64,000 bases of DNA from Mollicutes bacterium (GTDB taxonomy: Bacteria > Bacillota_I > Bacilli_A > RF39 > UBA660), in the NCBI GenBank assembly GCA_004552445.1, contig SFOJ01000007.1, positions 9,266 to 73,265 of the forward strand. Reading direction: 5' to 3'. The notes below the pieces were generated by a model. The model ran no database searches, had not been told where the DNA came from, and was given only the letters and a program-made list of their open reading frames with translations. The position numbers and the translations under genes are program-made. Below are positions 10,135 through 63,435 of this stretch, one piece after another. Positions within the stretch are counted from its first letter, which is position 1, and every line of letters begins with the position of its first letter.

Positions 10135-10162
10135 TCATAAAAAATGATTTATATCATATTTA
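10135..10162 (+). promoter_or_regulatory. Candidate sigma-E-type promoter of spoIVA
   Basis: TCATAAA (fits ZHATAXX), a 13-nt spacer, then CATATTTA (partial fit to CATACAHT), about 30 nt upstream of the spoIVA start. In AT-rich DNA this is weak evidence. Confidence 0.3.
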
Positions 10163-10189: not shown

Positions 10190-10555
10190 ATGGATAAATC
10201 AGAAATTATAAAGAGTTTGGGTAAAAAAGGTAATGGTGAAATATATTTAGGAGTAGTAGGTGCTGTTCGAACTGGTAAAAGTACTTTTATTAAGAAATGT
10301 ATTGAAAATTTGATTCTTCCATATATCGATGATGAGATAGAAAAGAAAAGATGTATGGATGAAATACCTCAAACTGCGCAAGGTAAAACTATTATGACAA
10401 TAGAACCTAAGTTTGTTCCTAGTAGTGGCGCTAATATCAATATCGATGGATTAATTACAAATATTAAATTGGTTGATTGCGTTGGTTTTGTAACACCAAA
10501 TTCTCTTGGATATGAAGATGAACTTGGAAATCCTCGTATGGTTAAAACACCTTGG
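10190..10555 (+). CDS. spoIVA: Stage IV sporulation protein A, 5' segment (codons 1-122) of a split gene
   Basis: It contains GEIYLGVVGAVRTGKSTFIKK (Walker A), IPQTAQGKTIMTIEPKFVP, VDCVGF and PRMVKTPW. After W122 the ORF reads VLLNK-stop, which is element sequence. Confidence 0.9.
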
Positions 10556-10677
10556 GTGTTGTTGAATAAGTGATACCCAAATATAAAAATAAAGAAATAC
10601 CTTATAAAATAAGGATAAAAGGCAATATTTCACTTTATTAGTTAAAGGCTAAAATTTAGAAAGTGAGATATTTTTTT

Positions 10678-11661
10678 ATGGAAAATAAGGAAATTTTTAA
10701 AAATAGTGAATTAATTCCTTTGCTGATAAAATATGTTAAGGTAAATAAAGTTGTATTTCCTATTGAGAAAGTAAAGTATTTATCTAATGCAGAAGTTATA
10801 GATGTATTAAAGAATTGTATTGATAAGGAAGAAATATATAATCCTAACTATGAAATGGTTAAAAATATTACTTTATTAGATGATAATGATTTAAAAGATA
10901 TATACCCTCTTATAAAAGAAAGTATGGAAAAAATCAATTACGATTATATGAGAGATATTAAAGATTTAGTTAATAATGTTAAATCAAGAAAGAAAGGTAA
11001 AAAATATTCTTTTGAAGAACATTTAAAGGCATTAATAATTGCTCTACTTTCTAATCATAGATGGGGAGATAATAATATTAGGGAAAATATGGATGCTATT
11101 GATGAAATATTTCATAATTATAATAAGAATTATTTAAAAGTTGTTGAACCAAGTGTTTTAGTTAATAAGTTAAGGAAGATTCATTGCACTAACCCAATGA
11201 TTAGTTATCAAATGAAAGCATTATCTAAAAATATAATGGTATTAGAACAAATAGAAAAAGATTATGGAAGTTTAGATAAGTTTGTAAGTAAAGAAAAACC
11301 TAATGACATAGCAAATATGTTTAACAGTGGTAAATATAAATTAATACAAGTTGGACGAGCTTTTGCTTATGATTATTTAAAAAGAGTTGGAGTTAATACT
11401 TGCAAAAAGAGTTCTCAATTAGAAAGATTATTTGGTAGTCATAGACTAGGAATTGTTGAAAATGCTAATGCTACTGAACAACAAGTATTAAATATTATAA
11501 AAAAGATTGCTGAATTAAATAACTGTGATGAGATAATCGTAGAATCAATAATCCAACAATTTTGTTTATTAAGATCTGCTAACATTTGTGGAGAACACCC
11601 TAACTGCGAGAAATGTAAGATAAGAAATTATTGTCATTATAACAAGAGATATGATGATTAA
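10678..11661 (+). CDS. HhH-GPD/endonuclease III-like protein with a C-terminal 4-Cys cluster
   Basis: The C-terminus is C-x5-C-x2-C-x5-C (CGEHPNCEKCKIRNYC), like the EndoIII Fe-S loop. An HhH-like segment reads VGRAFAYDYLKRVGV. The EndoIII-like start of the core is ALIIALLSN. Confidence 0.4.
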   Translation: MENKEIFKNSELIPLLIKYVKVNKVVFPIEKVKYLSNAEVIDVLKNCIDKEEIYNPNYEMVKNITLLDDNDLKDIYPLIKESMEKINYDYMRDIKDLVNNVKSRKKGKKYSFEEHLKALIIALLSNHRWGDNNIRENMDAIDEIFHNYNKNYLKVVEPSVLVNKLRKIHCTNPMISYQMKALSKNIMVLEQIEKDYGSLDKFVSKEKPNDIANMFNSGKYKLIQVGRAFAYDYLKRVGVNTCKKSSQLERLFGSHRLGIVENANATEQQVLNIIKKIAELNNCDEIIVESIIQQFCLLRSANICGEHPNCEKCKIRNYCHYNKRYDD

Positions 11662-11670
11662 TGTAATTAA

Positions 11671-11698
11671 AGGTATGTTTAACGACATATCTTTTTTG
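11671..11698 (+). terminator. Hairpin terminator upstream of the mob gene
   Basis: AGGTATGT-ttaacg-ACATATCT (one G-U pair) is followed by TTTTT. Confidence 0.5.
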
Positions 11699-11726
11699 TT
11701 GTTTAAAAAGAAAGGAGAAATGATAT

Positions 11727-13019
11727 ATGGAATTAAATTATGCAATATTTAGAAGTGAACCTATTATGACTATACCTGATTTAGCCCAAATAGGATCACA
11801 TAATAAGCGAGAAAAGAAAGCTTATCAATCAAATAAAGATATTAAAATAGAATTAAGTAAAAATAATATAGAACTTGTTCCACTAGATATGAAATATACT
11901 AAAGGTTTTGATAAACTAACAAAAGAATATAAAAAAGAACACGAAGAAAGAATGAAAACTGAACGAGCTGATAGAAAGAAAAGATACCATGAAATGTTAA
12001 ATAGTTCCAAAAATTGTGTTGCTGATGAATTAATTTTTACTGCTACTCATACTTTCTTTGATGGTATGTCTAGAGAGCAAATAAAAGAATGGGCAGATAC
12101 TTGTATGGAATTTGTTTATAAAGATTTAGGTTATAAAAAAGAACAAATTTTACATGCAACTGTCCATTTAGATGAATTAACACCTCATGTTCATTGTGTT
12201 GTTGTTCCACTTGTTAAGAAATTGGATAAGAGAACTAATACTGAAAGATATACCATATCTAAAAAACAATATATTAGAGATAAAATACACCTATCACAAT
12301 TACAAGATATGTATCATAAAAGTCTAACTGAAAAAGGTTATGATCTAGAACGAGGTATTAAAGGTAGTGATAATAAACACATTAAAATAAAAGAATATAA
12401 ACAACTTACTAAAAAATTAAATCACGAATTAAATGCTAAAAGTGATAGATTAGATAAAGCGATGAGTGAGTTTGAAGAACAAATGAAAACAAATAAAAAG
12501 ATTCCTTTTGATAATAAACATGTTATTTTAGAAAAAGAAACTTTTGATAGTATGAATAATGTTATTAATGAATCTAAAAAAGTAATGGAATTGCAACCTA
12601 AACTACAAACAATATTTAATAAAGTTGATGGATATGCTAATAGTTATAAATATCTTGAAAAAGAAAACTTTAGATATAAAAAAGAGATAGATAATCTAGA
12701 ATCCAAAAATAATGATTTAGAAATGAGAAATAATAGTTTACTAAATAGAATATATTATGTATTTCAAATGTTAAAAAAATTCTTAAGAAAACTATTACAA
12801 CGAGGTAATGATTATACAAAAGATGAAACAAGTAAGTTTATTAAAAATTGTTATGATGAACAAGAATTTGATATGAATGATGTTGTAGGTATTTCTAGAG
12901 GTACAACTAAACAAGATGAATTATTCGATTATGTAGAAGCACCAGATTATTTAAAATCTAGAGTTAAAGATTATGATGAATATGAAAAAGATAAAGATGA
13001 TTTTGAAATGAGTTTATAA
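11727..13019 (+). CDS. mob: MobV-family relaxase (Mob/Pre plasmid recombination enzyme)
   Basis: It contains HATVHLDELTPHVHCVVVPL (HxDE..PHxH motif), an N-terminal AIFRSEP...HNKRE, and a long coiled-coil C-terminus. Confidence 0.8.
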   Translation: MELNYAIFRSEPIMTIPDLAQIGSHNKREKKAYQSNKDIKIELSKNNIELVPLDMKYTKGFDKLTKEYKKEHEERMKTERADRKKRYHEMLNSSKNCVADELIFTATHTFFDGMSREQIKEWADTCMEFVYKDLGYKKEQILHATVHLDELTPHVHCVVVPLVKKLDKRTNTERYTISKKQYIRDKIHLSQLQDMYHKSLTEKGYDLERGIKGSDNKHIKIKEYKQLTKKLNHELNAKSDRLDKAMSEFEEQMKTNKKIPFDNKHVILEKETFDSMNNVINESKKVMELQPKLQTIFNKVDGYANSYKYLEKENFRYKKEIDNLESKNNDLEMRNNSLLNRIYYVFQMLKKFLRKLLQRGNDYTKDETSKFIKNCYDEQEFDMNDVVGISRGTTKQDELFDYVEAPDYLKSRVKDYDEYEKDKDDFEMSL

Positions 13020-13051
13020 TTTTAAAAAAATATTCTTGATTTTTATCATGT

Positions 13052-13285
13052 TTAGAGTGATAAATAGTTTGACCTAAAATAATTCTCAACTGGCAAATGA
13101 TAAATTGAAGTAGATTCCATAACAACAACTAAATTTGGATAATCTTTAATTAAATTATATAAATTATCAAATTCAATTTTATTATGTTCAATAAAAGACG
13201 CATCAATAATTGTATTTCTTAACTCATCAATAAAACAATAAACACTTTTTCCTTTAGCAATATCAAAACTTAAGATATGTTTCAT
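13052..13285 (-). pseudogene. IS110-family transposase, N-terminal 77-aa remnant
   Basis: SFDIAKGKS...VVVMESTSIYHLPV matches the DEDD/RuvC-like N-terminus of IS110 transposases. The ORF stops far short of the usual length of more than 300 aa. Confidence 0.6.
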
Positions 13286-13480
13286 AAATTTCTCCTTTCA
13301 TAAATATTTCGGTTAATACCATATGAGATTACCTATATTCCTACACGCTTAATCATCCGAACTCTAACGTTCCATTATCTACAACCGAATTTATAAATAA
13401 CCATATGGCAGACATTCATAAAATCGCACTCGAAGTGCCTGTTATAATCCGTCTTTACCGATGTTTGTTATAATAACAAA
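13286..13480 (-). ncRNA. Structured, GC-richer leader upstream of the IS110 remnant (possible bridge/seek RNA remnant)
   Basis: This is the position where IS110-group elements encode their guide RNA. Visible hairpins include GCACT-tcg-AGTGC, TTCGGTT/AACCGAA and two CCATATGG/TCATATGG palindromes. Confidence 0.25.
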
Positions 13481-13652
13481 AAACATAAAAATTTCAAAAT
13501 TTTAAACTTGAAATCTTTATGTTCAACATTATACGTGATATAATATAACTGATAGATAAATAGTAATATATTTGTAAAGTAGTTCAATTTTAGAATGATC
13601 TTTTATATGGTATAATGATTGTATTGTTTTTGTTACAGATTGGAAGTGAATT

Positions 13653-14357
13653 ATGAATCAAGAAAAAATAGGTAAATTTATTTTAAAACTTAGAATGGAT
13701 AATAATTTATCACAAGCAAAATTTGCTGACAAAATTGGTGTAACATATCAAGCAGTTTCAAAGTGGGAAAATGGTAGAGGTATACCAGATATAGAAATGT
13801 TAAAAAAAATCAGTGAAGTGTTTGATGTTGATATTGACGAAATAATTAACGGAGAAAAGAAAAAACAAAAATCAAAGTATAATTTAAGTTTATTAATTGC
13901 ATCAGTTTTTGGAATAGTAGTAATTGTATTATTTTTATTAATTACAATTTTTTTTAACAAAGATAATATTAATGTTGCAAATATAAATTCAATAGAATCG
14001 AATTTTTCAGTTAATGGAGTAATTGTATCGGAGAACAATTCTACTATGATACATATTTCTGATATTAGAGTTAATAAAGAATTAGATAAGAAATTTTATT
14101 CTATAGAATCAATGTTATACGAAGATAACAATAAAAATTATAAAATTATATCAGAATATAAAAGTATAGCCAATAATAATGAAACAAAAAACTTAGACGA
14201 GTTATTAAAAGAAGTTAAATTTGATATTGAAAATTATTCTGATTCTTGTCCAAATATATCAACACACAATTTTTACATTGTAATAAATGCACTTGATGAA
14301 GAAAAAAATAAAATCAATTATAAAATACCCTTATCTTTAGAAAATAAGTGTTCATAG
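13653..14357 (+). CDS. Membrane-anchored XRE-family HTH regulator
   Basis: The N-terminus LSQAKFADKIGVTYQAVSKWENGRGIPD is followed by a TM helix (LLIASVFGIVVIVLFLLITIFF) and an extracytoplasmic domain. Confidence 0.7.
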   Translation: MNQEKIGKFILKLRMDNNLSQAKFADKIGVTYQAVSKWENGRGIPDIEMLKKISEVFDVDIDEIINGEKKKQKSKYNLSLLIASVFGIVVIVLFLLITIFFNKDNINVANINSIESNFSVNGVIVSENNSTMIHISDIRVNKELDKKFYSIESMLYEDNNKNYKIISEYKSIANNNETKNLDELLKEVKFDIENYSDSCPNISTHNFYIVINALDEEKNKINYKIPLSLENKCS

Positions 14358-14468
14358 TTATCTAAACGCATCGTTTATAAAATAAAACATTGCGTTTATT
14401 TTTTTTTACACTGAACTAATTTATAATTAATTTTGGAAAGGAAAAGTTATAATAGAAGAGGTGTAAAA

Positions 14469-15182
14469 ATGAAAAAAATAATATTTATATTTTTGGGAAT
14501 ATTGTCAATCGGATTATTACTTCCAAATAAAGTAAATGCAGAAACAAATATTACGAATTTTGAAGATACAATAAAAGAGGAGATTAAAACATTTAAAGGA
14601 CAATCTGGTACCGAAGAATATATTAAAAAATTAGAATCTGCTGATTTATCAAATTATAAAGAAAGTGATGATAAAGTAAACATTTATATGTTTAGAGGAG
14701 ATACATGTAGTTATTGTTTAAAAGCAGTTACATATTTTTCTACTATAGTAGATAATTATGGAGACAAATTTAATTTAATAACTTATGAAGTATGGAAAAA
14801 TTCTGATAATGCTAAATTAATGGATGAAGTTGCCAAGACACTCGGAGAAGAACCAAACGGAGTTCCATATATAATAATTGGTGATAAATCATTTACGGGT
14901 TATAGTGAAGAAATGAACTCCCAAATTGAATCACAAATCAATAAAGTATATAAACAAACTGATAGATATGATGTTATGAATAATTTAGATAGTGGTACCA
15001 CTACTATTAAAGAGGTTAAGTCAAATAACACTTCGTCATCATCTATGGTTTGGCTATTTATTTTACAAATTATTTCTATATTAGGTTTGATCATTTATGT
15101 AAATAAAAATAATAAAAATATTAAACAAAAATTAGAAGAACTTGAAATGAAAGTTAATAAGAATGCAAAATCTAAAAAGTAA
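14469..15182 (+). CDS. Secreted/membrane-tethered thioredoxin-fold protein (CSYC motif)
   Basis: It has a signal peptide MKKIIFIFLGILSIGLLLPNKVNA, the segment MFRGDTCSYCLKAV...VPYIIIGD, and a C-terminal TM helix. Confidence 0.6.
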   Translation: MKKIIFIFLGILSIGLLLPNKVNAETNITNFEDTIKEEIKTFKGQSGTEEYIKKLESADLSNYKESDDKVNIYMFRGDTCSYCLKAVTYFSTIVDNYGDKFNLITYEVWKNSDNAKLMDEVAKTLGEEPNGVPYIIIGDKSFTGYSEEMNSQIESQINKVYKQTDRYDVMNNLDSGTTTIKEVKSNNTSSSSMVWLFILQIISILGLIIYVNKNNKNIKQKLEELEMKVNKNAKSKK

Positions 15183-15882
15183 AATAATTTTTATTGTAGT
15201 GTTAGTATTATGTATTTTTTCTTTCTTTGCAATATCTAAAGTTGCAATTATACATAATAATGATACTGATAGTATTAAATTTAAAGAGGAATATGAAAGT
15301 TTAAATGGCAAAAAATATAAAAATAAAAAAATAAGAGATGTTAAAATAGAAAAGGATAATCCTTTTGTATATAAAACAGCTGAAGAAATAGTAGACTTAA
15401 TAGAAAATGGTGAATCATTTATAGTATATTTTGGCTTTAGTAAATGTCCTTGGTGTAGAAGTATGATTGAAACTTTTATTAAAACAGCAAAAGAAAATAA
15501 TATAGATAAAATATATTATGTTGATATAGAAGAAATTAGAAATGTAATAGAATATGATAAGGACGGTAATTTAGTAACTACTAAAAATGGTACTCCAGAT
15601 TATTATGATTTAGTTAACAAACTAAATAGTGTTTTAAATCAATATACATTAAATAATAATGGAGAAGAAGTTGCTATTGGAGAAAAAAGGATATATGCCC
15701 CTAATGTTGTATTAGTAAATAATGGGGAACCTGTTGAAATGATTGATCCAATTGAAAATATTATTAAGGATCCTGCATCAGAAATTACAAAAGAACAAAA
15801 AGAAGAAATGTCTAATAAGATTAAATGTCTATTTTCATGTATGAAAAAAGGAAATACTTGTAGTATTAAAACGAAGTGTTAG
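15163..15882 (+). CDS. Membrane-anchored thioredoxin-like protein (CPWC motif)
   Basis: It has an N-terminal TM helix and FGFSKCPWCRSM in a thioredoxin-fold context. It overlaps the upstream gene by 20 nt. Confidence 0.6.
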   Translation: MQNLKSKIIFIVVLVLCIFSFFAISKVAIIHNNDTDSIKFKEEYESLNGKKYKNKKIRDVKIEKDNPFVYKTAEEIVDLIENGESFIVYFGFSKCPWCRSMIETFIKTAKENNIDKIYYVDIEEIRNVIEYDKDGNLVTTKNGTPDYYDLVNKLNSVLNQYTLNNNGEEVAIGEKRIYAPNVVLVNNGEPVEMIDPIENIIKDPASEITKEQKEEMSNKIKCLFSCMKKGNTCSIKTKC

Positions 15883-15971
15883 AAGAAAAAATATTAATTA
15901 CAATTGGAACAATAACAACATTAGTTTTGGGAATTTAACATTAAAAGTTATTCCTTTTTTTGATTATAGTC

Positions 15972-16025
15972 TTGACAGTTGAACGATTATTCAATTATAA
16001 TGTTAATAGTTGAGCGATTATTCAA
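15972..16025 (+). promoter_or_regulatory. cad promoter with two copies of an ArsR/CadC-type operator
   Basis: TTGACA (15972-15977), an 18-nt spacer, then TATAAT (15996-16001). The operator TTGAaCGATTATTCAA (15979-15994) repeats as TTGAgCGATTATTCAA (16010-16025). Each is a TTGAA-N6-TTCAA palindrome, with centres 31 bp apart. Confidence 0.7.
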
Positions 16026-16042
16026 TTAAGGAGAGATAAATT

Positions 16043-16396
16043 ATGATTAGTGATTGTAGCATCATACATGAAGATATGGTAAATAATATTAAAACATTAT
16101 TACCTGTTGATGATACTTTTATCAAAACTTCTAGTTTTTTTAAAGTATTAGGTGATAAAACTAGAATTAAAATATTATGGATTTTAAATGAGGGAGAATT
16201 ATGTGTTTGTGATATTGCAATTTTATGTAATATGACTAAGTCAGCAATTTCGCATCAATTATCATTTTTAAAGCAAAATAATATTGTTAAATCAAGAAAA
16301 GATGGAAAAGAAGTTTTTTATTCATTAAAAGACAATCATGTTAAATTTATGCTTGAAAATAGTATTAATCATATTATAGAAAAGGAGATTGATTAG
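16043..16396 (+). CDS. cadC: ArsR/SmtB-family metalloregulator (CadC-like)
   Basis: It contains FKVLGDKTRIKILWIL..GELCVCDI...MTKSAISHQLSFLK. Confidence 0.8.
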   Translation: MISDCSIIHEDMVNNIKTLLPVDDTFIKTSSFFKVLGDKTRIKILWILNEGELCVCDIAILCNMTKSAISHQLSFLKQNNIVKSRKDGKEVFYSLKDNHVKFMLENSINHIIEKEID

Positions 16397-16399
16397 AAA

Positions 16400-18241: not shown

Positions 18242-18275
18242 AAAATTACAATTTCTACAGCAGATTAAAAGTGAA

Positions 18276-18455
18276 AACCGAGCCAAAAGAAACATTGTAA
18301 CTAATGGCTCGGTTAAGCCTAGTTCTTGACGACTAGGTAACACACTACCAAGTCGGCATTTTGCCAACTAGGAATAGTGTGCAAAGGGACACCCTTTTGA
18401 AACCCAATAAGCAACATTTCACAAACTATCGTAAGTGAATGTTGCTCTTTTTTAT
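18276..18455 (+). other. GC-richer, densely structured non-coding island ending in a terminator
   Basis: Hairpins are AACCGAGCC/GGCTCGGTT, CCTAGT/ACTAGG and CACACTA/TAGTGTG, with a nested GGCA-ttt-TGCC. The terminator is GCAACATTTCAC/GTGAATGTTGC followed by a T-run. Confidence 0.4.
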
Positions 18456-18635
18456 TTTGTCTTGCGACTACATAAAAAAGAAAGAATACTATCGCCACTT
18501 TCATTGCTAAAGCAACAAAACGTGCCACGTATTCTTTAAATAAAAATAACCTAATACCTAATTTAACGAAAGGGTAAAAGGTTATTTTTTTCTTTTGCTA
18601 TGCAAAAGTAAGGATTATAAATTTACTTCATAAAT

Positions 18636-19064
18636 TTATTTTTTCTTATTTAGTAATTCCGATGTTTCTTTTTTAGCACTCTTAATTGCCATGAATACAA
18701 ATAATTCATATAAAAGTGTAATTGCAAAGAAACCACATACTAAATAAATATTATTTCTAACATCACTATTTATCATATCAATAAACTCTATTCCTAAATA
18801 TATTAATCCATAGAATACAGTAGATACAACTGTTATATCATTATATGATCTTCTAATTGACTTGCCCTCGTTTTGATTTATTTCAATTAACCCTTTATCT
18901 ACCTCATATATAAACATTACAATTAAAAATATTAAAATAGGAATTAAAATCCAATATAAAGAATAAGTAAGTTTATTATTAAATATGATAGTTAGTATTA
19001 AAAATAATCCTACAATAAAATTCACTACTACTAATAATTTTTTAATTATATTACTTTTTAGCAT
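18636..19064 (-). CDS. Small four-TM membrane protein co-transcribed with the XRE repressor
   Basis: The profile is hydrophobic. It overlaps the upstream regulator gene by 14 nt. Confidence 0.5.
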   Translation of the reverse strand: MLKSNIIKKLLVVVNFIVGLFLILTIIFNNKLTYSLYWILIPILIFLIVMFIYEVDKGLIEINQNEGKSIRRSYNDITVVSTVFYGLIYLGIEFIDMINSDVRNNIYLVCGFFAITLLYELFVFMAIKSAKKETSELLNKKK

Positions 19065-19554
19065 TTTTATTTCTCTCCTTTACTTTTAAACTTTGAATAA
19101 GTTTGATTATTTCTTTTGATGAATTAATTTGATATGTATGATCTTCGATAGTATGTATTAATAACTCTTTTTGTTCTTCTGGTAAATCATCTTTTTCTAA
19201 TTCTTTTTTACATGTAGAAACTATACTTTCAGAATTTTCTATACTTCCTAAAACATTTATTTCAGCAGTATCTAATTGTTCTAGATTTAAACTAGCATAA
19301 TGACTCTTAACAAAATAATTAAGTTGTGTCACTTCTAATCCTAAACCTATCATATACATTAAGTCACTATAATTAACATCTATTATATTACTTATCTTTC
19401 TTAATATTTTAGGACTAGGATCTTTTCTTATACCTGATTCTATTTTAGAAAGTTCAGAGTTATTAATCTTTGCAAGTTTCGCAAGTTGTCTTTGCGATAA
19501 ACCTTTCTTTTCTCTAGCTTCAGCAATAACTTCGCCGATATTTTTTTCTAGCAT
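19051..19554 (-). CDS. XRE/cI-like HTH repressor
   Basis: It contains KGLSQRQLAKLAKINNSELSKIESGIRK and is divergent from the rightward genes. Confidence 0.75.
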   Translation of the reverse strand: MLEKNIGEVIAEAREKKGLSQRQLAKLAKINNSELSKIESGIRKDPSPKILRKISNIIDVNYSDLMYMIGLGLEVTQLNYFVKSHYASLNLEQLDTAEINVLGSIENSESIVSTCKKELEKDDLPEEQKELLIHTIEDHTYQINSSKEIIKLIQSLKVKERNKNAKK

Positions 19555-19582
19555 AGAAATTCACCTCACACCATAATAATAC

Positions 19583-19708
19583 ACCCAGTGGGTAAAAAAG
19601 TCAACATAATTTCAATAAATGGGTAAAAAAGTGTTGACAATATAGTAATTAGCATGATATATTAAATATGTTTCCAAATGAACCCACTTTTAAATTAAAT
19701 GGGTAACA
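19583..19708. promoter_or_regulatory. Divergent promoter/operator region with repeated TGGGTAA / ACCCA motifs
   Basis: The sites are ACCCAgTGGGTAAAAAAGT (19583-19601), AAATGGGTAAAAAAGT (19618-19633), AACCCACT (19681-19688) and AAATGGGTAAC (19698-19708). The rightward promoter is TTGACA (19634-19639) with TGaTATATT (19655-19663). Confidence 0.55.
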
Positions 19709-19736
19709 TAGAAAAAGAAAGGAGGAAATCAAATGT

Positions 19737-20003
19737 ATGAGATTAAAAAAACAACTAGAATTAATTGATCCAAGAGTATGGAGAGATAAAAATATCAAGT
19801 TTGAAACGAAGCTGATATACAAAATACTCTGTGCGGAACAATCCCAAAGATGTGAATTCACAAGTATAAGTATCGGGAGAGTTCAAAAGAAATTGAGTAT
19901 AACAAATGTTGGATTCAAGAAGAACCTAAAAATATTAGAAGATAACAAATATATAAGGTTCAATGAATACGACCGAGGATTATACACATACGAGATTTGT
20001 TAG
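19737..20003 (+). CDS. Small winged-helix DNA-binding protein
   Basis: The RBS is AAAGGAGGA. The segment ISIGRVQKKLSITNVGFKKNLKILEDNKYIRF is HTH-like and paralogous to 20291-20572. Confidence 0.5.
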   Translation: MRLKKQLELIDPRVWRDKNIKFETKLIYKILCAEQSQRCEFTSISIGRVQKKLSITNVGFKKNLKILEDNKYIRFNEYDRGLYTYEIC

Positions 20004-20065
20004 AAAAGATTAAATCACTAACAAATAAAGGTTCAGTAAATGTTCGTAGATTTATATTAGAACCT

Positions 20066-20257
20066 ATCTTATAGAAATATAAGATGAACTAGTTTGAAGT
20101 AAAACATATTTCAAAGAACGAAATAAAAGAATAAAAGGGATTGAAATATGTTATGTATGTTTTACTTCAAGCAACCTATTTAGTGAGATTTATCTCACAC
20201 AGGGATTTTATTGTCATTATTAGTATGACTTGTAAGTAGTGTTTACAAGTTTTTTTA
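20066..20257 (+). other. Non-coding region with four hairpins, including a long interrupted inverted repeat, ending in a terminator
   Basis: Hairpins are ATCTTATA/TATAAGAT, TTGAAGTAAAACATATTTCAA (20094-20114) paired with TTGAAATATG...TGTTTTACTTCAA (20141-20170), and GTGAGA/TCTCAC. The terminator is ACTTGTAA/TTACAAGT followed by T7. Confidence 0.45.
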
Positions 20258-20290
20258 TTGCCTAAATTTAAAGGAAAGGAGATTGATAAT

Positions 20291-20572
20291 ATGAATAATA
20301 GCGATATTACTAAATTAAAGCATATAGAGGTGCCTACAATAGTTTTATTAGATGAAGAACTATCTTCTACTACTAAACTATTAATGGGTTTAATTAATAC
20401 CCTATCTATGCAAGAGGGATTTTGTTATGCAAGTAATAAGTATTTAAGTAATCTTTTAAAAGTATCTAAAAGAACGATTACTAGTTGCATAACATCATTA
20501 AGAACAAAAAAATATATTAGAGTTGAAAATGAACCTAATATAAGAAGAATCTATTTAGCAGATTTCTGCTAG
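20291..20572 (+). CDS. Winged-helix DNA-binding protein (replication-initiator/DnaD-N-like HTH)
   Basis: The start is at MNNSDITK after AAAGGAAAGGAG. The HTH-like segment is YLSNLLKVSKRTITSCITSLRTKKYIRVE. Confidence 0.45.
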   Translation: MNNSDITKLKHIEVPTIVLLDEELSSTTKLLMGLINTLSMQEGFCYASNKYLSNLLKVSKRTITSCITSLRTKKYIRVENEPNIRRIYLADFC

Positions 20573-20722
20573 ATGTAATAGCAAGATACTGCTAGTGAGT
20601 ATAGCAAGTATCTTCTAACAGAATAAATAATATAATAAATAATATTAATAGATAATATAAATTTAAAATTATTTTAATAATTTAAATCTTTAAAAAGATT
20701 AAAAAGAAAGGAAGTTATAAAA

Positions 20723-21142
20723 ATGGAAATTGATTTAAACGAAATTATAATATCTGGAACTATTAATAATGTGACAGATAATAATAAAGATTATATTAAG
20801 TTTGGTTTAACCACTCTTAAATATGATAAAAGGAAAGTTTATGCTAGTTTTAATATTAACCGAAATCTTTATGAAATATATAAAGATTTTTTTGTTAAAG
20901 GAACAAGAGTTTTTGTTAAAGGTTATCTTAATTCTTATATTACAAATGAAAGAATACAAAGTTTTATTACTGTGACTGATATATCAGACAATAAAGATGA
21001 AATGATGAACGGAAGAAAAGGTCCTCATATAAGACTTGATTCAGACGGTGTTGAAGTTTGGGATGGAAAAAGATGTGAAGCAATTCCACCCACTGAAGAA
21101 GAACTTAAAGAAATGGAAGATATGCTAAAAGAATATCAATAG
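20723..21142 (+). CDS. OB-fold, SSB-like protein
   Basis: The N-terminus LNEIIISGTINNV...IKFGL...VFVKGYLNSY resembles an SSB OB-fold. The tail is acidic. Confidence 0.35.
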   Translation: MEIDLNEIIISGTINNVTDNNKDYIKFGLTTLKYDKRKVYASFNINRNLYEIYKDFFVKGTRVFVKGYLNSYITNERIQSFITVTDISDNKDEMMNGRKGPHIRLDSDGVEVWDGKRCEAIPPTEEELKEMEDMLKEYQ

Positions 21143-21217
21143 AAAGGTGTGATAATTTATGAAGAATAGTAATTTTTATAAACTATTACACATAAAATTC
21201 ATTGTGGAGGAATAATC

Positions 21218-21400
21218 ATGTATGAAACACTAGAATTTTATGATAGTAATGGTTGTGATTTAAAAGAAGTCTTAAAAAGTTGTATATATAAATATTATAT
21301 GGCTTATAAAAATTCATCAAAAGTATTTAAATCGGACGCAAAAAATAGTATAATTAATTCAACTAATAAAGTGAATGTGTTGTCTACTGAAAGGAGATAA
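21218..21400 (+). CDS. 60-aa protein immediately upstream of the recombinase (candidate directionality factor)
   Basis: The RBS is GGAGGA. Its stop lies 3 nt before the recombinase start. No recognizable motif was found. Confidence 0.4.
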   Translation: MYETLEFYDSNGCDLKEVLKSCIYKYYMAYKNSSKVFKSDAKNSIINSTNKVNVLSTERR

Positions 21401-21403
21401 AAA

Positions 21404-22933
21404 ATGTATAGTAGATATGCAATAGACAATACGATTTTTAAAATAGCCATTTATATAAGACTATCTCGTGAAGATGGTGATGATATGGAATCAGAAAGTG
21501 TCACTAATCAAAGAAGTTTATTAATTGGTTATTTAAAAGCACAACGCCCAGAGTTTAAGAGAATGTTAAATGACATTGAAAATGGAAAAATAAACATGGT
21601 TATTACTAAAGATTTATCAAGATTAGGTCGTGACCATATAATGACTGGTTATTATGTTGAAACATTTTTCCCAGAAAACGATGTTAGATATGTTGCCGTA
21701 AACGATGATATAGATACTTTTTTTGAAACAAGTGGCTCTGATATGATGCCATTTAGATTAAGTATGAATGATATGTATGCAAAAGATATTTCTAAAAAAG
21801 TTCGTTCAAACTTACTTCAAATGAAAAAAGATGGAAAGTTTTGTGGAAGTTCTGCACCTTATGGTTATATGAGAGATCCTTTAGACAAACACAAACTAGT
21901 ACCTGATCCAGAAACTGCTCCTGTAGTAAAAAGAATTTTTGATTTATATGTTGCAGGTTATGGTAGCTCACAAATTGCTGAAATACTAACAAGAGAAGAA
22001 TTACCAACACCAGTTATGTATAAATACTCTGATTCAAAATTAAATAGATTTGACCATCCTGAAATATGGAAACACACATCTGTCAGTAATATCATCAAAA
22101 ATAGAGTTTATATTGGAGATTTAATTCAACACAGATTTCAAAAAGTGAATTATAAGATTAAGAAAAGAAAAAGTGTTCCTGAAAGTGAATGGTGTATTAA
22201 AGAAAATGCACACGAACCACTTGTAGATAGGAAAACATTTGAAATCGCACAATCTATTAAAGATTCATCAAATAATTATAATCCTGAACGAAGAAATGTT
22301 GATTATGTTTTATCTGATTTAGTATTTTGTAAAGATTGTGGTGCTAGAATGAGTATTAGTTATGATAAGAAAAGAGATAGAGTCACAATGAATTGTAATA
22401 ACTATCGTAAGTTTAGTAAGTATGATATATGCTTTTCTCACTATATTAACTATACAAAACTAGAAAACACAGTCTATGACAAGTTAAGTACTATGGCTAA
22501 TCAATATATTAATGATAAAGAAGAATTTGAAAATATTATTAAAAGCCAATATGTTGATCCAAAAGCAGATAAACTAAAAAAGATAGAAGAATTAAATCAT
22601 ACAATAAATGATTTAAAAAGAAAACAAGACTCTTTATATGATGATAAATTTAATAATGTTATAAGTGTAGAAACTTATCAAAGATTATTTAATGCTACTG
22701 AAGAAGATATTAAAACTGCAAAAGATAAACTAGAACAATTACAAAATGAAATATCTAGTATTAATGATGATTCTTCTTGTTATGTAGAATATTTAGATAT
22801 TATTAAAAGTTTTCTAGATATGAAAAATCCAACAAGAGAAATCATGAATAGATTAATAGATAAAATATATGTAACGAAAGATAAAAAACTAGAAATTCAT
22901 TATAGAATTAAAAAAAGTGAAGTATTAATATAG
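21404..22933 (+). CDS. Large serine recombinase (resolvase/invertase N-domain, recombinase domain, zinc ribbon, coiled coil)
   Basis: It contains IAIYIRLSREDG (nucleophile Ser), ITKDLSRLGRD, PYGYMRDP, VVKRIF, a Cys-rich C..C..(22)..C zinc-ribbon region and a C-terminal coiled coil. The DDGxSG block appears to be missing. Confidence 0.85.
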   Translation: MYSRYAIDNTIFKIAIYIRLSREDGDDMESESVTNQRSLLIGYLKAQRPEFKRMLNDIENGKINMVITKDLSRLGRDHIMTGYYVETFFPENDVRYVAVNDDIDTFFETSGSDMMPFRLSMNDMYAKDISKKVRSNLLQMKKDGKFCGSSAPYGYMRDPLDKHKLVPDPETAPVVKRIFDLYVAGYGSSQIAEILTREELPTPVMYKYSDSKLNRFDHPEIWKHTSVSNIIKNRVYIGDLIQHRFQKVNYKIKKRKSVPESEWCIKENAHEPLVDRKTFEIAQSIKDSSNNYNPERRNVDYVLSDLVFCKDCGARMSISYDKKRDRVTMNCNNYRKFSKYDICFSHYINYTKLENTVYDKLSTMANQYINDKEEFENIIKSQYVDPKADKLKKIEELNHTINDLKRKQDSLYDDKFNNVISVETYQRLFNATEEDIKTAKDKLEQLQNEISSINDDSSCYVEYLDIIKSFLDMKNPTREIMNRLIDKIYVTKDKKLEIHYRIKKSEVLI

Positions 22934-22946
22934 GTAAAAATACGAG

Positions 22947-22965
22947 TTGCTTCCAAGCAATTTTT
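22947..22965 (+). terminator. Terminator after the recombinase gene
   Basis: TTGCTT-cc-AAGCAA is followed by TTTTT. Confidence 0.55.
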
Positions 22966-23004
22966 AAAAATAAAATTAGGTATCACAAAAACAGGTCATA
23001 CTGG

Positions 23005-24114
23005 TTTAGTGAAGAACTTCCATTTGTAGAAGCTGCTGAAATTGGAACAGAGAAAGTTATTAAAGATCATGCTACTATAGGAATAGTGGTAACTACTGAT
23101 GGAAGTATATTAGACTTACCTAGAAGTAATTATGTACAAGCTGAAGATAAGGTTATAAATGAACTTAAAAGTATTAATAAGCCATTTATAGTCATTATGA
23201 ATAGTGCTCATCCAATGTCTAATGAAACTATTAGTATGAGTGAAGCTTTAAAAGAAAAATACGGTGTACCAGTAATACCAATTAGTGTTGAAAATATGAC
23301 TGAAAGAGATATTACTGAAATATTAAAAGAAGCTTTATATGAGTTTCCAGTTGATCATATAGAGTTTAATATACCTGATTGGGTAGGAGTATTAAAAAGT
23401 GATCATCCTTTAAAGCAAAAGTTTATTACTAAAATGAAAGATTCTATTGTTAATGTTGATAAACTAAGAGATGTTGAAAATATTAATTTAAATCTTGAAG
23501 ATAATAGTGAAATTACTAAAGCATATATTTCTAAACTTGATACTGAAAACTCTGAAGTAACTATTACTATGGAAGCAAGTGATGAACTATTTAATGAAAT
23601 ATTAAAAAGTGTTGTTGGAACTTCTGTTAATAGTAAAGGAGATTTATTAAAAGTATTTCAAGATGTTAGTGAGGGAAGAAGTGAATATGAAAGCATAAAA
23701 GGTGCTTTAAAACAAGTGTATCAAACTGGATATGGTATAGTTCTTCCTAGAATTACGGATATGAAGCTTGATAAACCTGAAATTATAAAACAAGGTGGAA
23801 GATTTGGAATTAAACTTAAAGCTAAAGCATCAAGTGTACATATGATTAAAGTTGATGTAGAAAGTAGTTTTGAACCTATTATAGGAAGTGAAATACAAAG
23901 TAAAGAATTAATAGACTATATAATGAAAGATAATGAAGATCCAGAAAAAATATGGAAAAGTGAGATATTTGGAAGAAGTCTTAGTGAAATAGTTCAAGAG
24001 GGTATTCAAGCTAAGTTATCATTGCTCCCAGATTCTGCTAAATATAAATTATCTCAAACTATAACTAAGATGGTTAATAAAGGAAGTAATAATTTAATAG
24101 CTATAGTATTATGA
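23005..24114 (+). CDS. spoIVA: Stage IV sporulation protein A, 3' segment (codons 123-491) of a split gene
   Basis: The frame is open from 23005 and reads FSEELPFVEAAEIGTEKVIKDHATIGIVVTTDGS...KPFIVIMNS...LYEFPV... through to the conserved C-terminus ...NNLIAIVL. No start codon or RBS of its own is needed. Confidence 0.9.
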   Translation, partial: FSEELPFVEAAEIGTEKVIKDHATIGIVVTTDGSILDLPRSNYVQAEDKVINELKSINKPFIVIMNSAHPMSNETISMSEALKEKYGVPVIPISVENMTERDITEILKEALYEFPVDHIEFNIPDWVGVLKSDHPLKQKFITKMKDSIVNVDKLRDVENINLNLEDNSEITKAYISKLDTENSEVTITMEASDELFNEILKSVVGTSVNSKGDLLKVFQDVSEGRSEYESIKGALKQVYQTGYGIVLPRITDMKLDKPEIIKQGGRFGIKLKAKASSVHMIKVDVESSFEPIIGSEIQSKELIDYIMKDNEDPEKIWKSEIFGRSLSEIVQEGIQAKLSLLPDSAKYKLSQTITKMVNKGSNNLIAIVL

Positions 24115-24135
24115 CACTCATGTGAGTGTTTTTAA
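24114..24135 (+). terminator. spoIVA terminator
   Basis: ACACTCA-tg-TGAGTGT is followed by TTTT. Confidence 0.6.
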
Positions 24136-62523: not shown

Positions 62524-63435
62524 ATGATAGAGATTGATAATAAAGAATATATTGATGATTTTAGTGATTATTTAAAAATAGATAAGAATTATAGTGCTAA
62601 TACTATAGAATCATATATAAGAGATATTAGAAATTTTTTGGAATATACTGATAAAGAGATTCTAGATATATCTAAGAGAGATATTGATAATTATATACTT
62701 CATGTACTTCCTAAATATAATGAAAGTTCTATTAATAGAATAATTGCAAGTATTAAAAGTTTTTTTAAGTATTTATCTATATATAAGGGTTTTATTAATG
62801 TTAGTGAAGATGTTGAAAGTCTTAAAAGAAAAAAGATACTTCCTAAATATTTAAGTATTGAAGAAGTAGATAATCTTTTAGATATAAAGTTAGTTACACC
62901 TTTTGATTATAGAAATAAAACTATTCTTGAACTTTTATATGCAACTGGTCTTAGAGCTACTGAACTTATAAATCTTGATTTAATTAATATAGATATTTCT
63001 AATATGGTTGTTAAAGTATATGGAAAAGGAAGTAAAGAGAGAATAGTTCCTTTAAGTAAAATTGCCGTTAATTATTTAGATTTGTATATTAATAAATATA
63101 GGCCGATGATGTTTGTTAAGAATCAAAAACCAACTGATGCGTTATTTTTAAATAATCATGGTCAGAGAATGACAAGACAGGGATTATATAAAATTATTGG
63201 AGAGATAGCAAGAACTAAAAAAATAGATAAAGAAATAACTCCTCATGTTTTAAGACATAGTTTTGCTACTCATATGATTGAGTGTGGTGCTGATATACGT
63301 AGTGTTCAAGAACTTCTTGGACATGAGAATGTTGTTACTACTGAGATATATACTCATCTTGCAAATAATTTTATAAAAGAAAATTATAATGAATATTTTA
63401 ATAGAAGTGTAAAGGAAGATGAAAATAATGTTTAA
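62524..63435 (+). CDS. xerD: Site-specific tyrosine recombinase XerD
   Basis: It contains ATGLRATEL, HVLRHSFATHMIECGADIRSVQELLGH and TEIYTH. It lies upstream of deoB, as ripX-drm does in Bacillus. Confidence 0.85.
   Translation: MIEIDNKEYIDDFSDYLKIDKNYSANTIESYIRDIRNFLEYTDKEILDISKRDIDNYILHVLPKYNESSINRIIASIKSFFKYLSIYKGFINVSEDVESLKRKKILPKYLSIEEVDNLLDIKLVTPFDYRNKTILELLYATGLRATELINLDLINIDISNMVVKVYGKGSKERIVPLSKIAVNYLDLYINKYRPMMFVKNQKPTDALFLNNHGQRMTRQGLYKIIGEIARTKKIDKEITPHVLRHSFATHMIECGADIRSVQELLGHENVVTTEIYTHLANNFIKENYNEYFNRSVKEDENNV

What the first reader, a model, noticed from the sequence alone, without database searches (positions are those of the whole stretch)
10190..24114. spoIVA is cut in two by a 12.4-kb recombinase-bearing element: a skin-like developmental intervening element in a different mother-cell gene
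ORF 10190-10573 encodes the first 122 aa of the spore-coat morphogenetic ATPase SpoIVA (Walker A GAVRTGKST ... PRMVKTPW). It then reads five unrelated codons (VLLNK) and a TGA. The rest of SpoIVA (FSEELPFVEAAEIGTEKVIKDHATIGIVVTTDG ... to the conserved C-terminus) resumes at 23005 with no start codon of its own and ends at 24114. Joining 10555 to 23005 is in frame and gives an uninterrupted 491-codon ORF. As I recall, B. subtilis SpoIVA is 492 aa. The 12,449 bp in between have their own cargo and end with a 509-aa large serine recombinase gene reading toward the right junction.

spoIVA is a mother-cell (sigma-E) gene. This matches the logic of the known sigK/skin, spsM/SPbeta, spoVFB, spoVR and gerE intervening elements: excision in the terminally differentiated mother cell would rebuild the gene while the forespore chromosome keeps the element. 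Neither half has acquired an extra stop in 491 codons, which fits either a very recent insertion or selection for reconstitution. The window also carries sigH, a spoVB-like gene, a YetF-family gene and a BclA-like collagen gene, so the host looks like a spore former. I cannot confirm from memory that spoIVA has been reported as such a target.
Basis: partly seen in the sequence, partly recalled or inferred. Interest (0 to 1): 0.95.

Follow-up and report, generated by a model that had tools for sequence, protein, structure and literature searches.

The report
Mobile element splitting sporulation gene spoIVA
A 12.4-kb mobilizable DNA element sits precisely inside the spore-coat gene spoIVA of an uncultured gut bacterium; it belongs to a widespread, previously unreported family that always targets this codon, probably cutting itself out during spore formation, but this copy's cutting enzyme looks broken.

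Summary
spoIVA is split at codon W122 (10555|23005) by a 12,449-bp insert, and the in-silico join matches the SpoIVA equivalog model end to end. The exact joined protein, and the base-for-base empty site, exist in the same species (263 index blocks against 38 for the split allele).

The insert is not a prophage. It is an integrative mobilizable element carrying a MobV relaxase, CadC/CadA cadmium resistance, regulators, a conserved small ORF and a TnpX-like large serine recombinase. Crossover is at the TG of TGG, and attP has symmetric 8-bp inverted arms. Every relative of the recombinase down to 51% identity with downstream sequence (19 GTDB species genomes, plus 10 metagenome contexts) sits at the same spoIVA codon. 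The hosts' SpoIVA is only 53-72% identical, and identical elements occur in divergent hosts, so spread is horizontal and recent.

Mother-cell excision that rebuilds spoIVA is the most likely lifestyle, but it is inferred and not shown. This copy is probably locked in.

I found no prior report of spoIVA as a target. I class it as a new member of a known kind.

The parts
10135..10162 (+). Putative mother-cell (sigma-E-type) promoter of spoIVA: TCATAAA, N13, CATATTTA
   Evidence: Read from the sequence. The same architecture, (T)CATATT or TTCTTTTT, N13, CATAnnnT(T)TA, appears upstream of spoIVA in 15 different hosts. The sigma-factor assignment is inferred from B. subtilis consensus knowledge.
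10190..10555 (+). spoIVA 5' part (codons 1-122, Walker A GAVRTGKST); it then reads VLLNK and a stop (to 10573) inside the element
   Evidence: TIGR02836 positions 1-123.
10553..10577 (+). attL: crossover TG (10553-10554) within TGG (W122), a 14-nt spacer, then the element arm GTGATACC (10570-10577)
   Evidence: L045 has attL ...CCC-TG-A and attR ...CCC-TG-G, which narrows the crossover to TG.
10556..23004 (+). 12,449-bp integrative mobilizable element. The boundary is nominal: the TGG core is present at both junctions (10553-10555 and 23002-23004)
10678..11661 (+). First element gene, 327 aa (332 aa from GTG 10663), no known family
   Evidence: The exact protein is on record in 3814 blocks, and in 10/10 contexts shown it is preceded by a SpoIVA N-fragment.
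11727..13019 (+). MobV/Pre-family relaxase (mobilization)
   Evidence: NF041497 MobV 113.5 bits (cutoff 100); PF01076 Mob_Pre.
13052..13285 (-). 77-aa remnant of an IS110-family transposase
   Evidence: PF01548, below cutoff. An intact 402-aa IS110 transposase is present in the variant element L019.
13653..15882 (+). Cargo: HTH_3 membrane regulator (13653-14357) and two thioredoxin-like/PedC-like proteins (14433-15182, 15163-15882)
16043..18241 (+). Cargo: ArsR/SmtB (CadC-like) repressor and Cd/Zn heavy-metal P-type ATPase (CadA-like)
   Evidence: NF033788 95 bits and TIGR01512/TIGR01525 514-556 bits.
18636..19554 (-). Backbone: 142-aa membrane protein and 167-aa HTH_3 repressor-like regulator (divergent from the right-hand module)
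   Evidence: Conserved in related elements L011, L016-L019.
19737..21142 (+). Backbone: 88-aa ORF, 104-aa HTH_36 / replication-initiator-like protein (20258-20572), 139-aa ORF
   Evidence: PF13730; PHROG replication-initiation families; conserved in relatives.
21189..21200 (+). Conserved CATAnnAT(T) box (CACATAAAATTC) 5 nt upstream of the small ORF's RBS GGAGG (21206-21210); candidate mother-cell-type -10 element
   Evidence: Conserved across diverged subfamilies. Second-best of 24,828 positions for a matrix trained only on host spoIVA promoters, but only 9.8 bits. Suggestive only.
21218..21400 (+). Conserved 60-aa small ORF (MYExxEFYxxNGxDLKxxLKSCIYxYY) immediately upstream of the recombinase; candidate directionality or accessory factor
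   Evidence: Present in all 21 family loci examined, including the 2.6-kb minimal element. No Pfam or PHROG family. Positional analogue of skr, which overlaps spoIVCA (PMC6957869). The model is low confidence.
21404..22933 (+). TnpX-like large serine recombinase, 509 aa here against 528 aa elsewhere; a 57-bp in-frame deletion lies at 21543/21544
   Evidence: Pfam Resolvase, Recombinase, Zn_ribbon_recom and DUF4368. Best PDB match is the TnpX catalytic domain 2mhc, E 3e-27. Deletion.
22979..23004 (+). attR: element arm GGTATCAC (22979-22986), a 15-nt spacer, then TGG (23002-23004; crossover TG 23002-23003)
   Evidence: The same arm and the same TGG appear in all 19 family attR junctions.
23005..24114 (+). 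spoIVA 3' part (codons 123-491 and stop)
   Evidence: TIGR02836 positions 123-492.
24113..24130 (+). Terminator-like hairpin at the end of spoIVA, the only + strand terminator-like site between 10190 and 24130

Best explanation
Shown. The insert is an integrative mobilizable element (IME). Its TnpX-like large serine recombinase uses a site inside spoIVA as attB, with a TG crossover in the W122 codon. The site lies in the conserved PRMVKTPW|(F/Y) motif. The element is polymorphic in the host species and spreads horizontally among many species of uncultured low-GC gut Bacilli. It always lands at this codon in the same orientation, and the join is exact.

Inferred. Because SpoIVA is needed only in the mother cell, the family most likely persists by excising there. 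The small-ORF/recombinase operon would be transcribed from its own CATA-type (sigma-E/K-like) promoter. attL x attR recombination would release a circle and rebuild spoIVA behind its own sigma-E-type promoter. The forespore would keep the integrated copy. The small ORF would act as directionality or accessory factor. MobV would allow the circle to be mobilized from vegetative cells.

Specific to this window. The recombinase has lost 19 residues (beta2 and the DDGYTG motif) of its catalytic domain. This copy is therefore probably excision-dead, and spoIVA in this genome is probably locked in two pieces.
For: Gene identity and seamless join:
- Established.
- The exact joined protein exists in the same species and neighbourhood, and the attB DNA is identical to the predicted join.

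Junction anatomy typical of serine integrases:
- A 2-bp TG core, with attP arms GGTATCAC/GTGATACC placed symmetrically about TG.

Family-wide target specificity:
- All 19 GTDB-species loci with recombinase identity of at least 51% and downstream DNA break spoIVA at the same TGG.
- C-halves are open for 368-370 codons in 18 of the 19. All N-halves seen are intact.
- None of the 57 loci with 42% identity or less is next to spoIVA.
- 10/10 contexts of the first element gene follow a SpoIVA N-fragment in different hosts.

Conserved core and minimal derivatives:
- Derivatives of 2.6-4.2 kb keep only cargo plus the small ORF and an intact recombinase.
- The small ORF is conserved in all 21 loci, in the same position as the skin RDF skr.

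Promoter signal:
- The CATAnnAT box upstream of the operon resembles host spoIVA -10 boxes.

Deletion in this window:
- The window is 100% identical to contigs L016 and L018 except for 57 bp.
- The deleted segment aligns to TnpX GFENIRHFTDDGFSGVNFN. It is conserved in all relatives.
- The Pfam Resolvase match drops from 1-144 at 79.7 bits to 46-144 at 50.8 bits.
- The exact 509-aa protein is not on record, while the 528-aa form is on at least 1000 contigs.
Against: - No direct evidence of excision. No attP or circle junction was found in viral or JGI metagenome contigs.
- The promoter match is weak (9-12 bits against 16-30 for the training set), with no convincing -35. Strict sigma-E/K patterns found nothing.
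- The small ORF has no recognisable family or confident fold.
- Insertions are recent and horizontally acquired, so intact halves do not demonstrate selection for rejoining.
- Only about 13% of index blocks for this species carry the insert.
- Sister recombinases in the same bacteria also sit inside non-sporulation genes such as zupT. Serine-recombinase IMEs are known to disrupt dispensable genes without reconstitution (PMC5704250).
- The loss of function from the 19-aa deletion is predicted, not measured, and the deletion could be an assembly error.
Confidence: 0.55

Rival explanations
1. Plain disruptive IME. The element uses the spoIVA site simply because it is a conserved sequence in a gene that is dispensable for vegetative growth. 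Excision is not tied to sporulation. Carriers sporulate poorly or not at all. The element persists through frequent horizontal transfer and useful cargo (cadmium resistance, Fic, ATPases).
For: - Near-identical elements in hosts with 60-72% SpoIVA identity, and no co-divergence.
- Minority frequency in the species, 38 against 263 blocks.
- Sister recombinases sit inside a Ca-ATPase gene and zupT.
- Serine-recombinase IMEs are known to disrupt dispensable genes such as rumA (PMC5704250).
- No attP was found.
- This window's copy has a defective recombinase.
Against: - A recombinase lineage that has diverged to 51% identity while keeping the same spoIVA codon as its only observed target implies a long-sustained lifestyle.
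- From established knowledge of B. subtilis and C. difficile spoIVA mutants, a spoIVA-null cell that enters sporulation loses both mother cell and viable spore, so permanent disruption would eliminate carriers at every sporulation.
- Non-mobilizable minimal derivatives still keep an intact small ORF and recombinase.
- No decayed spoIVA half was seen in about 30 contexts.
Confidence: 0.27
2. Stochastic, non-developmental excision. As with TnpX of Tn4451, the recombinase alone both excises and integrates at a low constitutive rate. Only a sub-population has an intact spoIVA at any time, so the element acts as a reversible on/off switch or bet-hedging device for sporulation rather than a programmed mother-cell rearrangement.
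For: - The catalytic domain is closest to TnpX, with a DUF4368 tail.
- Tn4451's recombinase needs no RDF (PMC5704250).
- The yin element in yabG is excised in a sub-population at all time points (PMC10747680).
Against: - A small ORF is conserved and coupled to every recombinase of the family.
- The CATA-type box suggests dedicated control.
- An excised, non-replicating circle in dividing cells would be lost, yet no sample with mixed alleles was identified among those inspected.
Confidence: 0.15
3. Assembly artefact or chimera: the element was joined to spoIVA by misassembly.
For: The source of the window is unknown, and the element is a multi-host repeat at which metagenome contigs often break.
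Against: The same junctions appear in independent assemblies from ENA, Logan and NCBI, on contigs up to 316 kb and 1.37 Mb that span both flanks. The break is at a defined TG with matching attP symmetry.
Confidence: 0.01

Closest known systems
skin element in sigK (B. subtilis SpoIVCA/Skr; C. difficile CD1231/CD1234)
   Same: Interrupts the coding sequence of a mother-cell sporulation gene. Carries a large serine recombinase next to one junction. The join is precise and in frame. A small gene lies immediately upstream of, or overlapping, the recombinase gene (skr in skin). Element-free strains exist.
   Different: The target is spoIVA, not sigK. The backbone is a mobilizable IME with resistance cargo, not a defective prophage. 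The recombinase is TnpX-like with a DUF4368 tail. Excision during sporulation has not been demonstrated here. The element is highly mobile between species.
gin element in gerE of B. cereus ATCC 10987 (non-prophage gene-intervening element; PMC5595907)
   Same: A non-prophage intervening element in a mother-cell gene, rejoined by an element-encoded recombinase.
   Different: Different target gene and different element content. For gin, rearrangement during sporulation was shown experimentally; here it is inferred.
SPbeta (SprA/SprB) in spsM, vfbin in spoVFB, vrin in spoVR, yin in yabG
   Same: The same logic: an element with a large serine recombinase inside a mother-cell gene. SprA is the second-best structural match (9dxh).
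   Different: Those are prophages or prophage-like elements. Their RDFs are identified or modelled. Their targets are other genes.
Tn4451/Tn4453 integrative mobilizable elements (TnpX plus MobV-family TnpZ)
   Same: A large serine recombinase whose catalytic domain is the best PDB match (2mhc, E 3e-27). A MobV/Pre relaxase. A 2-bp crossover. Resistance cargo.
   Different: Tn4451 has low target specificity and needs no RDF (PMC5704250). This family is strictly specific for one spoIVA codon and always carries a conserved small ORF upstream of the recombinase.
Site-specific serine-recombinase IMEs that disrupt dispensable genes (e.g. rumA in streptococci; PMC5704250)
   Same: An IME with a single serine recombinase integrating at a specific site inside a coding sequence.
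   Different: The target here is a developmental gene essential for spore formation. This makes regulated excision advantageous or necessary.

Membership tests
SpoIVA (TIGR02836, stage IV sporulation protein A) | Full-length match to the equivalog model above its curated cutoff | tested here: met
   The joined protein scores 619 bits against a cutoff of 459.9, covering 1-491 to 1-492/492. The halves cover 1-123 and 123-492.
Sporulation gene-intervening elements (skin/SPbeta/vfbin/vrin/gin/yin kind) | Interrupts the coding sequence of a gene expressed in the mother cell | tested here: met
   The gene is spoIVA. Mother-cell (sigma-E) expression follows from established knowledge of B. subtilis and C. 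difficile (e.g. spoIVA listed as a sigma-E target in PMC5025042). A sigma-E-like promoter architecture is seen upstream in 15 hosts.
Sporulation gene-intervening elements (skin/SPbeta/vfbin/vrin/gin/yin kind) | Carries its own site-specific recombinase, with attL and attR at the gene junctions | tested here: met
   The large serine recombinase (21404-22933) ends 69 nt before the attR core TGG. The core is TG, and attP arms are symmetric.
Sporulation gene-intervening elements (skin/SPbeta/vfbin/vrin/gin/yin kind) | Precise excision would restore an intact, functional ORF | tested here: met
   The in-silico join equals a protein (P0241) and DNA found in empty-site strains of the same species.
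Sporulation gene-intervening elements (skin/SPbeta/vfbin/vrin/gin/yin kind) | Excision occurs during sporulation and only in the mother cell | not testable with these tools
   This needs cultures or read-level data. No assembled attP was found.
Sporulation gene-intervening elements (skin/SPbeta/vfbin/vrin/gin/yin kind) | Sporulation-specific control of the recombinase and/or an RDF | tested here: inconclusive
   The small ORF is conserved in all 21 loci but has no family or confident fold. The CATA-type box is conserved but scores weakly. Strict sigma-E/K patterns found nothing.
Sporulation gene-intervening elements (skin/SPbeta/vfbin/vrin/gin/yin kind) | The recombinase of this copy is catalytically competent | tested here: not met
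   A 19-aa deletion removes the beta2 strand and DDGYTG motif of the catalytic domain. Loss of function is predicted, not measured. Other copies in the population are intact.
Tn4451/Tn4453-type IMEs | TnpX-like large serine recombinase | tested here: met
   Best PDB hit is the TnpX catalytic domain 2mhc, E 3.4e-27. PF14287 DUF4368 tail, E 9e-5, just below Pfam's gathering score (23.1 against 25 bits).
Tn4451/Tn4453-type IMEs | MobV/Pre relaxase for mobilization | tested here: met
   NF041497 at 113.5 bits (cutoff 100) and PF01076.
Tn4451/Tn4453-type IMEs | Low target-site specificity (many insertion sites) | tested here: not met
   All about 30 contexts examined are at the same spoIVA codon. 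Tn4451's low specificity is described in PMC5704250.
Tn4451/Tn4453-type IMEs | The recombinase alone performs excision and integration (no RDF) | not testable with these tools
   A conserved small ORF argues for an accessory factor, but there is no functional test.
Prophage or prophage-like element | Phage structural, packaging or lysis genes | tested here: not met
   The PHROG scan of backbone genes finds only regulators, a replication-initiator-like HTH and the integrase. The remaining genes are MobV and metal-resistance or thioredoxin-like cargo.

The most novel reading that the evidence does not exclude
spoIVA is a hub for a previously undescribed, widespread class of non-phage, mobilizable developmental intervening elements in uncultured gut Bacilli. 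A TnpX-like serine recombinase and a new small directionality factor, expressed from a mother-cell promoter, excise the element and rebuild spoIVA in every sporulating cell. A second, unrelated recombinase family does the same at codon ~403, so some genomes carry spoIVA in three pieces. A single lesion in the recombinase, as in this window, is a one-step route to loss of sporulation.
Probability: 0.45. Interest if true: 0.75.

Novelty: new member of a known kind. Interest (0 to 1): 0.6.

Why it matters
If excision is confirmed, several things follow.

- spoIVA, the ATPase that founds the spore coat and is needed early under sigma-E, joins sigK, spsM, spoVFB, spoVR, gerE and yabG as a gene rebuilt by DNA rearrangement.
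- The phenomenon extends from prophage relics in cultured Bacillus and Clostridium to actively spreading, resistance-carrying mobilizable elements in uncultured gut Bacilli.
- The family offers natural large serine recombinases (51-100% identical) with defined attB and attP sites and a candidate new directionality factor, of possible use in genome engineering.
- Genome surveys that score sporulation capacity by intact genes would wrongly call carriers spoIVA-negative.
- The crippled recombinase in this window would be a concrete example of how such an element can flip from harmless passenger to sporulation-killing lesion.

Tried and rejected
- Literature: six full-text searches and several paper reads found no report of spoIVA as an interrupted gene or integration target.
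- Exact look-up of the 509-aa recombinase: not on record.
- attP (circle junction) patterns: no match in viral contigs or JGI metagenome contigs. This is a weak negative, because the species is mainly in ENA/Logan data that cannot be scanned by pattern.
- Strict B. subtilis-style sigma-E and sigma-K regular expressions: no hits in the element or even upstream of spoIVA. I replaced them with a matrix trained on host spoIVA promoters, which gave only modest scores.
- Generic sigma-70 and terminator scan: no more sites than in shuffled sequence.
- Pfam and PHROG searches of the small ORF, the 139-aa, 88-aa and 142-aa ORFs and the 327-aa first gene: nothing.
- AlphaFold model of the small ORF: pLDDT 68, pTM 0.37, too poor for a fold search.
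- Co-divergence of recombinase and host SpoIVA as evidence of long vertical carriage: rejected (Spearman -0.23).
- Prophage interpretation: rejected.
- Second spoIVA copy, or a second recombinase of this family in the window that could act in trans: none.
- I did not run a structure prediction of the deleted recombinase, because such models are insensitive to deletions.

Full report
**1.

ORF 10190-10573 encodes 122 residues of SpoIVA with the Walker A motif, then VLLNK and a stop. The frame 23005-24114 encodes 369 further residues with no start codon.

The joined 491-aa protein matches the NCBIfam equivalog TIGR02836 over its whole length (1-491 against 1-492/492) at 619 bits, cutoff 459.9. 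The two pieces cover model positions 1-123 and 123-492. The intervening DNA is exactly 12,449 bp. The window holds no other spoIVA copy.

**2. The junctions are recombination sites, and the empty site exists**

- The exact in-silico joined protein is in the public collection (P0241, NCBI MCI7332558.1), listed in 263 index blocks. It always lies in the same neighbourhood as the window: SecA, a 163-aa gene, spoIVA, a 188-aa gene, a 62-aa gene, pilin, UvrA.
- Its DNA is 99.4-99.8% identical to the window's flanks and identical base for base across the predicted join.
- The split allele (the exact 127-aa N-fragment) is listed in 38 blocks. The insertion is therefore polymorphic within one species, at roughly 13% of index blocks.
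- A sister taxon (L022, SpoIVA 95% identical) also has an uninterrupted gene. Its alignment to the window stops at 10555 and resumes at 23002, so TGG is shared by both junctions.
- In the relative L045, attL reads …CCC-TG-A and attR reads …CCC-TG-G. This narrows the crossover to the dinucleotide TG.
- The reconstructed attP has perfect 8-bp inverted arms, GGTATCAC and GTGATACC, placed 15 nt either side of that TG. This is the anatomy expected for a large serine recombinase site.

**3. What the element is**

It is not a prophage. Its genes are:

- an unknown 327-aa protein;
- a MobV/Pre relaxase;
- an IS110 transposase remnant;
- an HTH membrane regulator and two thioredoxin-like proteins;
- a CadC-like repressor with a Cd/Zn P-type ATPase;
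- a divergently transcribed repressor-like HTH gene;
- a replication-initiator-like HTH_36 protein;
- two unknown small proteins;
- a 60-aa ORF;
- a large serine recombinase with Resolvase, Recombinase, Zn-ribbon and DUF4368 domains.

The closest solved structure to the recombinase is the catalytic domain of TnpX from Tn4451 (2mhc, E 3e-27), followed by SprA of SPbeta. In architecture the element is an integrative mobilizable element of the Tn4451 type. Its GC content (25%) equals that of the host (26%).

**4. The family always targets this codon of spoIVA**

A scan of one genome per GTDB species with a recombinase alignment returned 80 loci. Nearly all come from uncultured gut MAGs labelled Bacilli, Tenericutes, Mycoplasma or Bacillales, from human, rabbit, roe deer and goat.

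- All 23 loci with at least 51% recombinase identity are candidates. Four are contigs that end at the recombinase. In the other 19, a spoIVA 3' part begins within about 100 bp of the recombinase stop.
- All 19 break at the same TGG, with GGTATCAC 15-16 nt upstream. In 18 the C-half is open for 368-370 codons.
- Where the left end is on the contig, the N-half is intact and ends at the same W codon.
- None of the 57 loci with 42% identity or less is next to spoIVA.
- The host SpoIVA proteins are only 53-72% identical to the window's, so these are many different species and genera.
- The exact first protein of the element is on record in 3814 blocks. In all ten contexts shown it follows a 126/127-aa SpoIVA fragment, but with different upstream host genes.
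- The intact 528-aa recombinase is on at least 1000 contigs. Sources name it from Candidatus Coprovivens and Mycoplasmatota bacteria.

Element sizes range from 12.4 kb down to 2.6 kb. The smallest elements hold only a Fic or AAA_14/DUF4143 gene, the small ORF and the recombinase. One of them keeps a MobV remnant.

**5. Spread is horizontal and recent**

Element DNA with 0 mismatches in 2342 bp sits in hosts whose SpoIVA N-half is 63-69% identical to the window's. Recombinases that are 100% identical occur in hosts with 60-72% SpoIVA identity. Recombinase and host distances do not correlate (Spearman -0.23).

What does carry weight is that a recombinase lineage which has diverged to 51% identity has kept a single observed target.

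**6. Mechanism: shown and inferred**

Shown:
- site-specific integration at TG within W122;
- exact reversibility in sequence terms;
- a conserved small-ORF/recombinase core.

Inferred: excision in the mother cell. The reasoning follows the known intervening elements (PMC4191935, PMC5025042, PMC5595907, PMC6957869, PMC10747680). SpoIVA is required only in the mother cell. A permanently split spoIVA would cost the carrier its spores each time it sporulates (established knowledge of spoIVA mutants). A family that lives only in this gene must therefore restore it.

Supporting hints:
- A small ORF of 36-77 aa (MYExxEFYxxNGxDLKxxLKSCIYxYY) precedes or overlaps the recombinase start in all 21 loci examined, including the 2.6-kb element. 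This is the position of skr, the RDF of skin, relative to spoIVCA (PMC6957869).
- A CATAnnAT(T) box lies upstream of the small ORF's ribosome-binding site (5 nt in the window, about 5-12 nt across the family) in nearly all subfamilies. It resembles the -10 boxes of host spoIVA promoters, which share (T)CATATT or TTCTTTTT, N13, CATAnnnT(T)TA.
- A matrix trained only on the host promoters ranks that site first or second on the + strand in five of seven elements. The scores are only 9-12 bits against 16-30 for the (non-held-out) training set, and the -35 region is unconvincing.

I rate developmental excision for the family at roughly 0.55-0.6.

**7. The complication in this window**

The recombinase here is 509 aa, while essentially all relatives are 528 aa. 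The alignment shows an in-frame loss of 19 residues between …YLKAQ and RPEFKRML.

At the DNA level the window is 100% identical to independent contigs L016 and L018 over the 8.4 kb before and 12.6 kb after the deletion point (L016). The only difference is a clean 57-bp deletion at 21543/21544, with 2 bp of microhomology. All other copies inserted in this species have the 528-aa form, and the 509-aa protein is not on record.

The lost segment aligns to TnpX GFENIRHFTDDGFSGVNFN. By homology with gamma-delta/Tn3 resolvase (established structural knowledge), it comprises the central beta2 strand and the loop carrying the D36 and S39 equivalents. The catalytic serine (YIRLSRED) and the R45 equivalent remain. 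The Pfam Resolvase match shrinks from positions 1-144 at 79.7 bits to 46-144 at 50.8 bits. No second recombinase of the family is in the window.

Most likely this copy cannot excise, so spoIVA in this genome is locked in two pieces. Alternatively the deletion is a sequence or assembly error. Only the source reads can tell.

**8. Rivals**

- The main rival (0.27) is a plainly disruptive IME, maintained by transfer and cargo. It is supported by the recency of insertions and the minority frequency. It is also supported by my finding that sister recombinases in the same bacteria sit inside a Ca-ATPase gene, zupT and a LysM-repeat gene, and by precedent for serine-recombinase IMEs in dispensable genes (PMC5704250).
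- A second rival (0.15) is stochastic, TnpX-like excision without developmental control, acting as a sporulation switch.
- Misassembly is excluded by many independent long contigs.

**9. Comparison with what is known, and novelty**

In logic this matches the skin, SPbeta, vfbin, vrin, gin and yin class. In hardware it matches Tn4451-type IMEs, except that Tn4451 has low target specificity and no accessory ORF. Published lists of split mother-cell genes (sigK, spsM, spoVFB/spoIVFB, spoVR, gerE, kamA, yabG) do not include spoIVA, and six full-text searches found no report.

I therefore call it a new member of a known kind: a new target gene, a new recombinase lineage and a mobilizable rather than phage-derived backbone. 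Its distribution in uncultured gut Bacilli is unusually wide.

I score interest at 0.6. It is a solid, testable extension of a known phenomenon with some new angles, but it is not conceptually surprising, and the key claim of developmental excision remains unproven.

Noticed in passing
L023 7391-15615 (CALVXD010000070.1); equivalent window position about 23845: In this MAG spoIVA is in three pieces. Besides the W122 element, a second element of about 7 kb interrupts it near …SIH|MIKV… (codon ~403). That element ends with a different 546-aa large serine recombinase reading into the spoIVA tail. The second family recurs: L119 and L120 (69% identity) and L128 (96%) abut SpoIVA residues ~400-491, and L126 (42%) lies 1.1 kb from residues 1-404.
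   Followed up: partly
L046-L102 (recombinases with 42% identity or less to the window's): Sister large serine recombinases from the same gut Bacilli abut internal fragments of other genes. These are a Ca2+ P-type ATPase starting at model position ~324/882 (L046, L047, L048, L059), ZupT starting at 137/266 (L082, L089), and, in 18 loci, a LysM-repeat (SafA/SpoVID-like) gene that lacks its first codons and start. Whether these are mother-cell genes is unknown.
   Followed up: partly
L045 8931-11570; L037 8144-11649; L036 8043-11648; L030 7310-11471: Minimal spoIVA-intervening elements of 2.6-4.2 kb carry only one cargo gene (Fic/DOC in L045 and L037, AAA_14/DUF4143 ATPase in L036 and L030), the small ORF and the recombinase. 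L030 retains a 131-aa remnant of the MobV relaxase, so it derives by deletion from a larger element.
   Followed up: partly
window 13052-13285 (-); L019 1862-3070: The window's element carries a 77-aa IS110-family transposase remnant. A cargo variant of the element inserted at the same site in the same species (L019, L002) has an intact 402-aa IS110 transposase and different neighbouring genes.
   Followed up: no
L035-L038, L041, L045, about 40-60 nt upstream of the small ORF: In these subfamilies an AT-rich hairpin (e.g. AAAAAGAATAATG … CATTGTTCTTTTT) ending in GTTCTTTTT lies 12-13 nt upstream of the CATA box. The same GTTCTTTTT, N13, CATA arrangement occurs upstream of spoIVA in some hosts (L036, L106). 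It could be a terminator that insulates the recombinase operon, part of the promoter, or both.
   Followed up: no
window 22860-22885 (-), and the same place in L024, L030, L036-L038: The spoIVA-promoter matrix also scores a conserved antisense site inside the 3' end of the recombinase gene (…CATATATTTTAT on the minus strand). It is the top hit in several elements. It lies in conserved coding sequence, so it is probably coincidental.
   Followed up: no
L005-L010, L020, L021: Many metagenome contigs carrying the split allele end 19-111 nt into the element or inside the recombinase 3' end. This is what is expected if the identical element is present in several species of the same sample and breaks the assembly graph.
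   Followed up: no
window 62524-63435 (+): A 303-aa tyrosine recombinase (Phage_integrase with an N-terminal SAM-like domain), most likely a XerC/XerD-type housekeeping recombinase, unrelated to the element.
   Followed up: no
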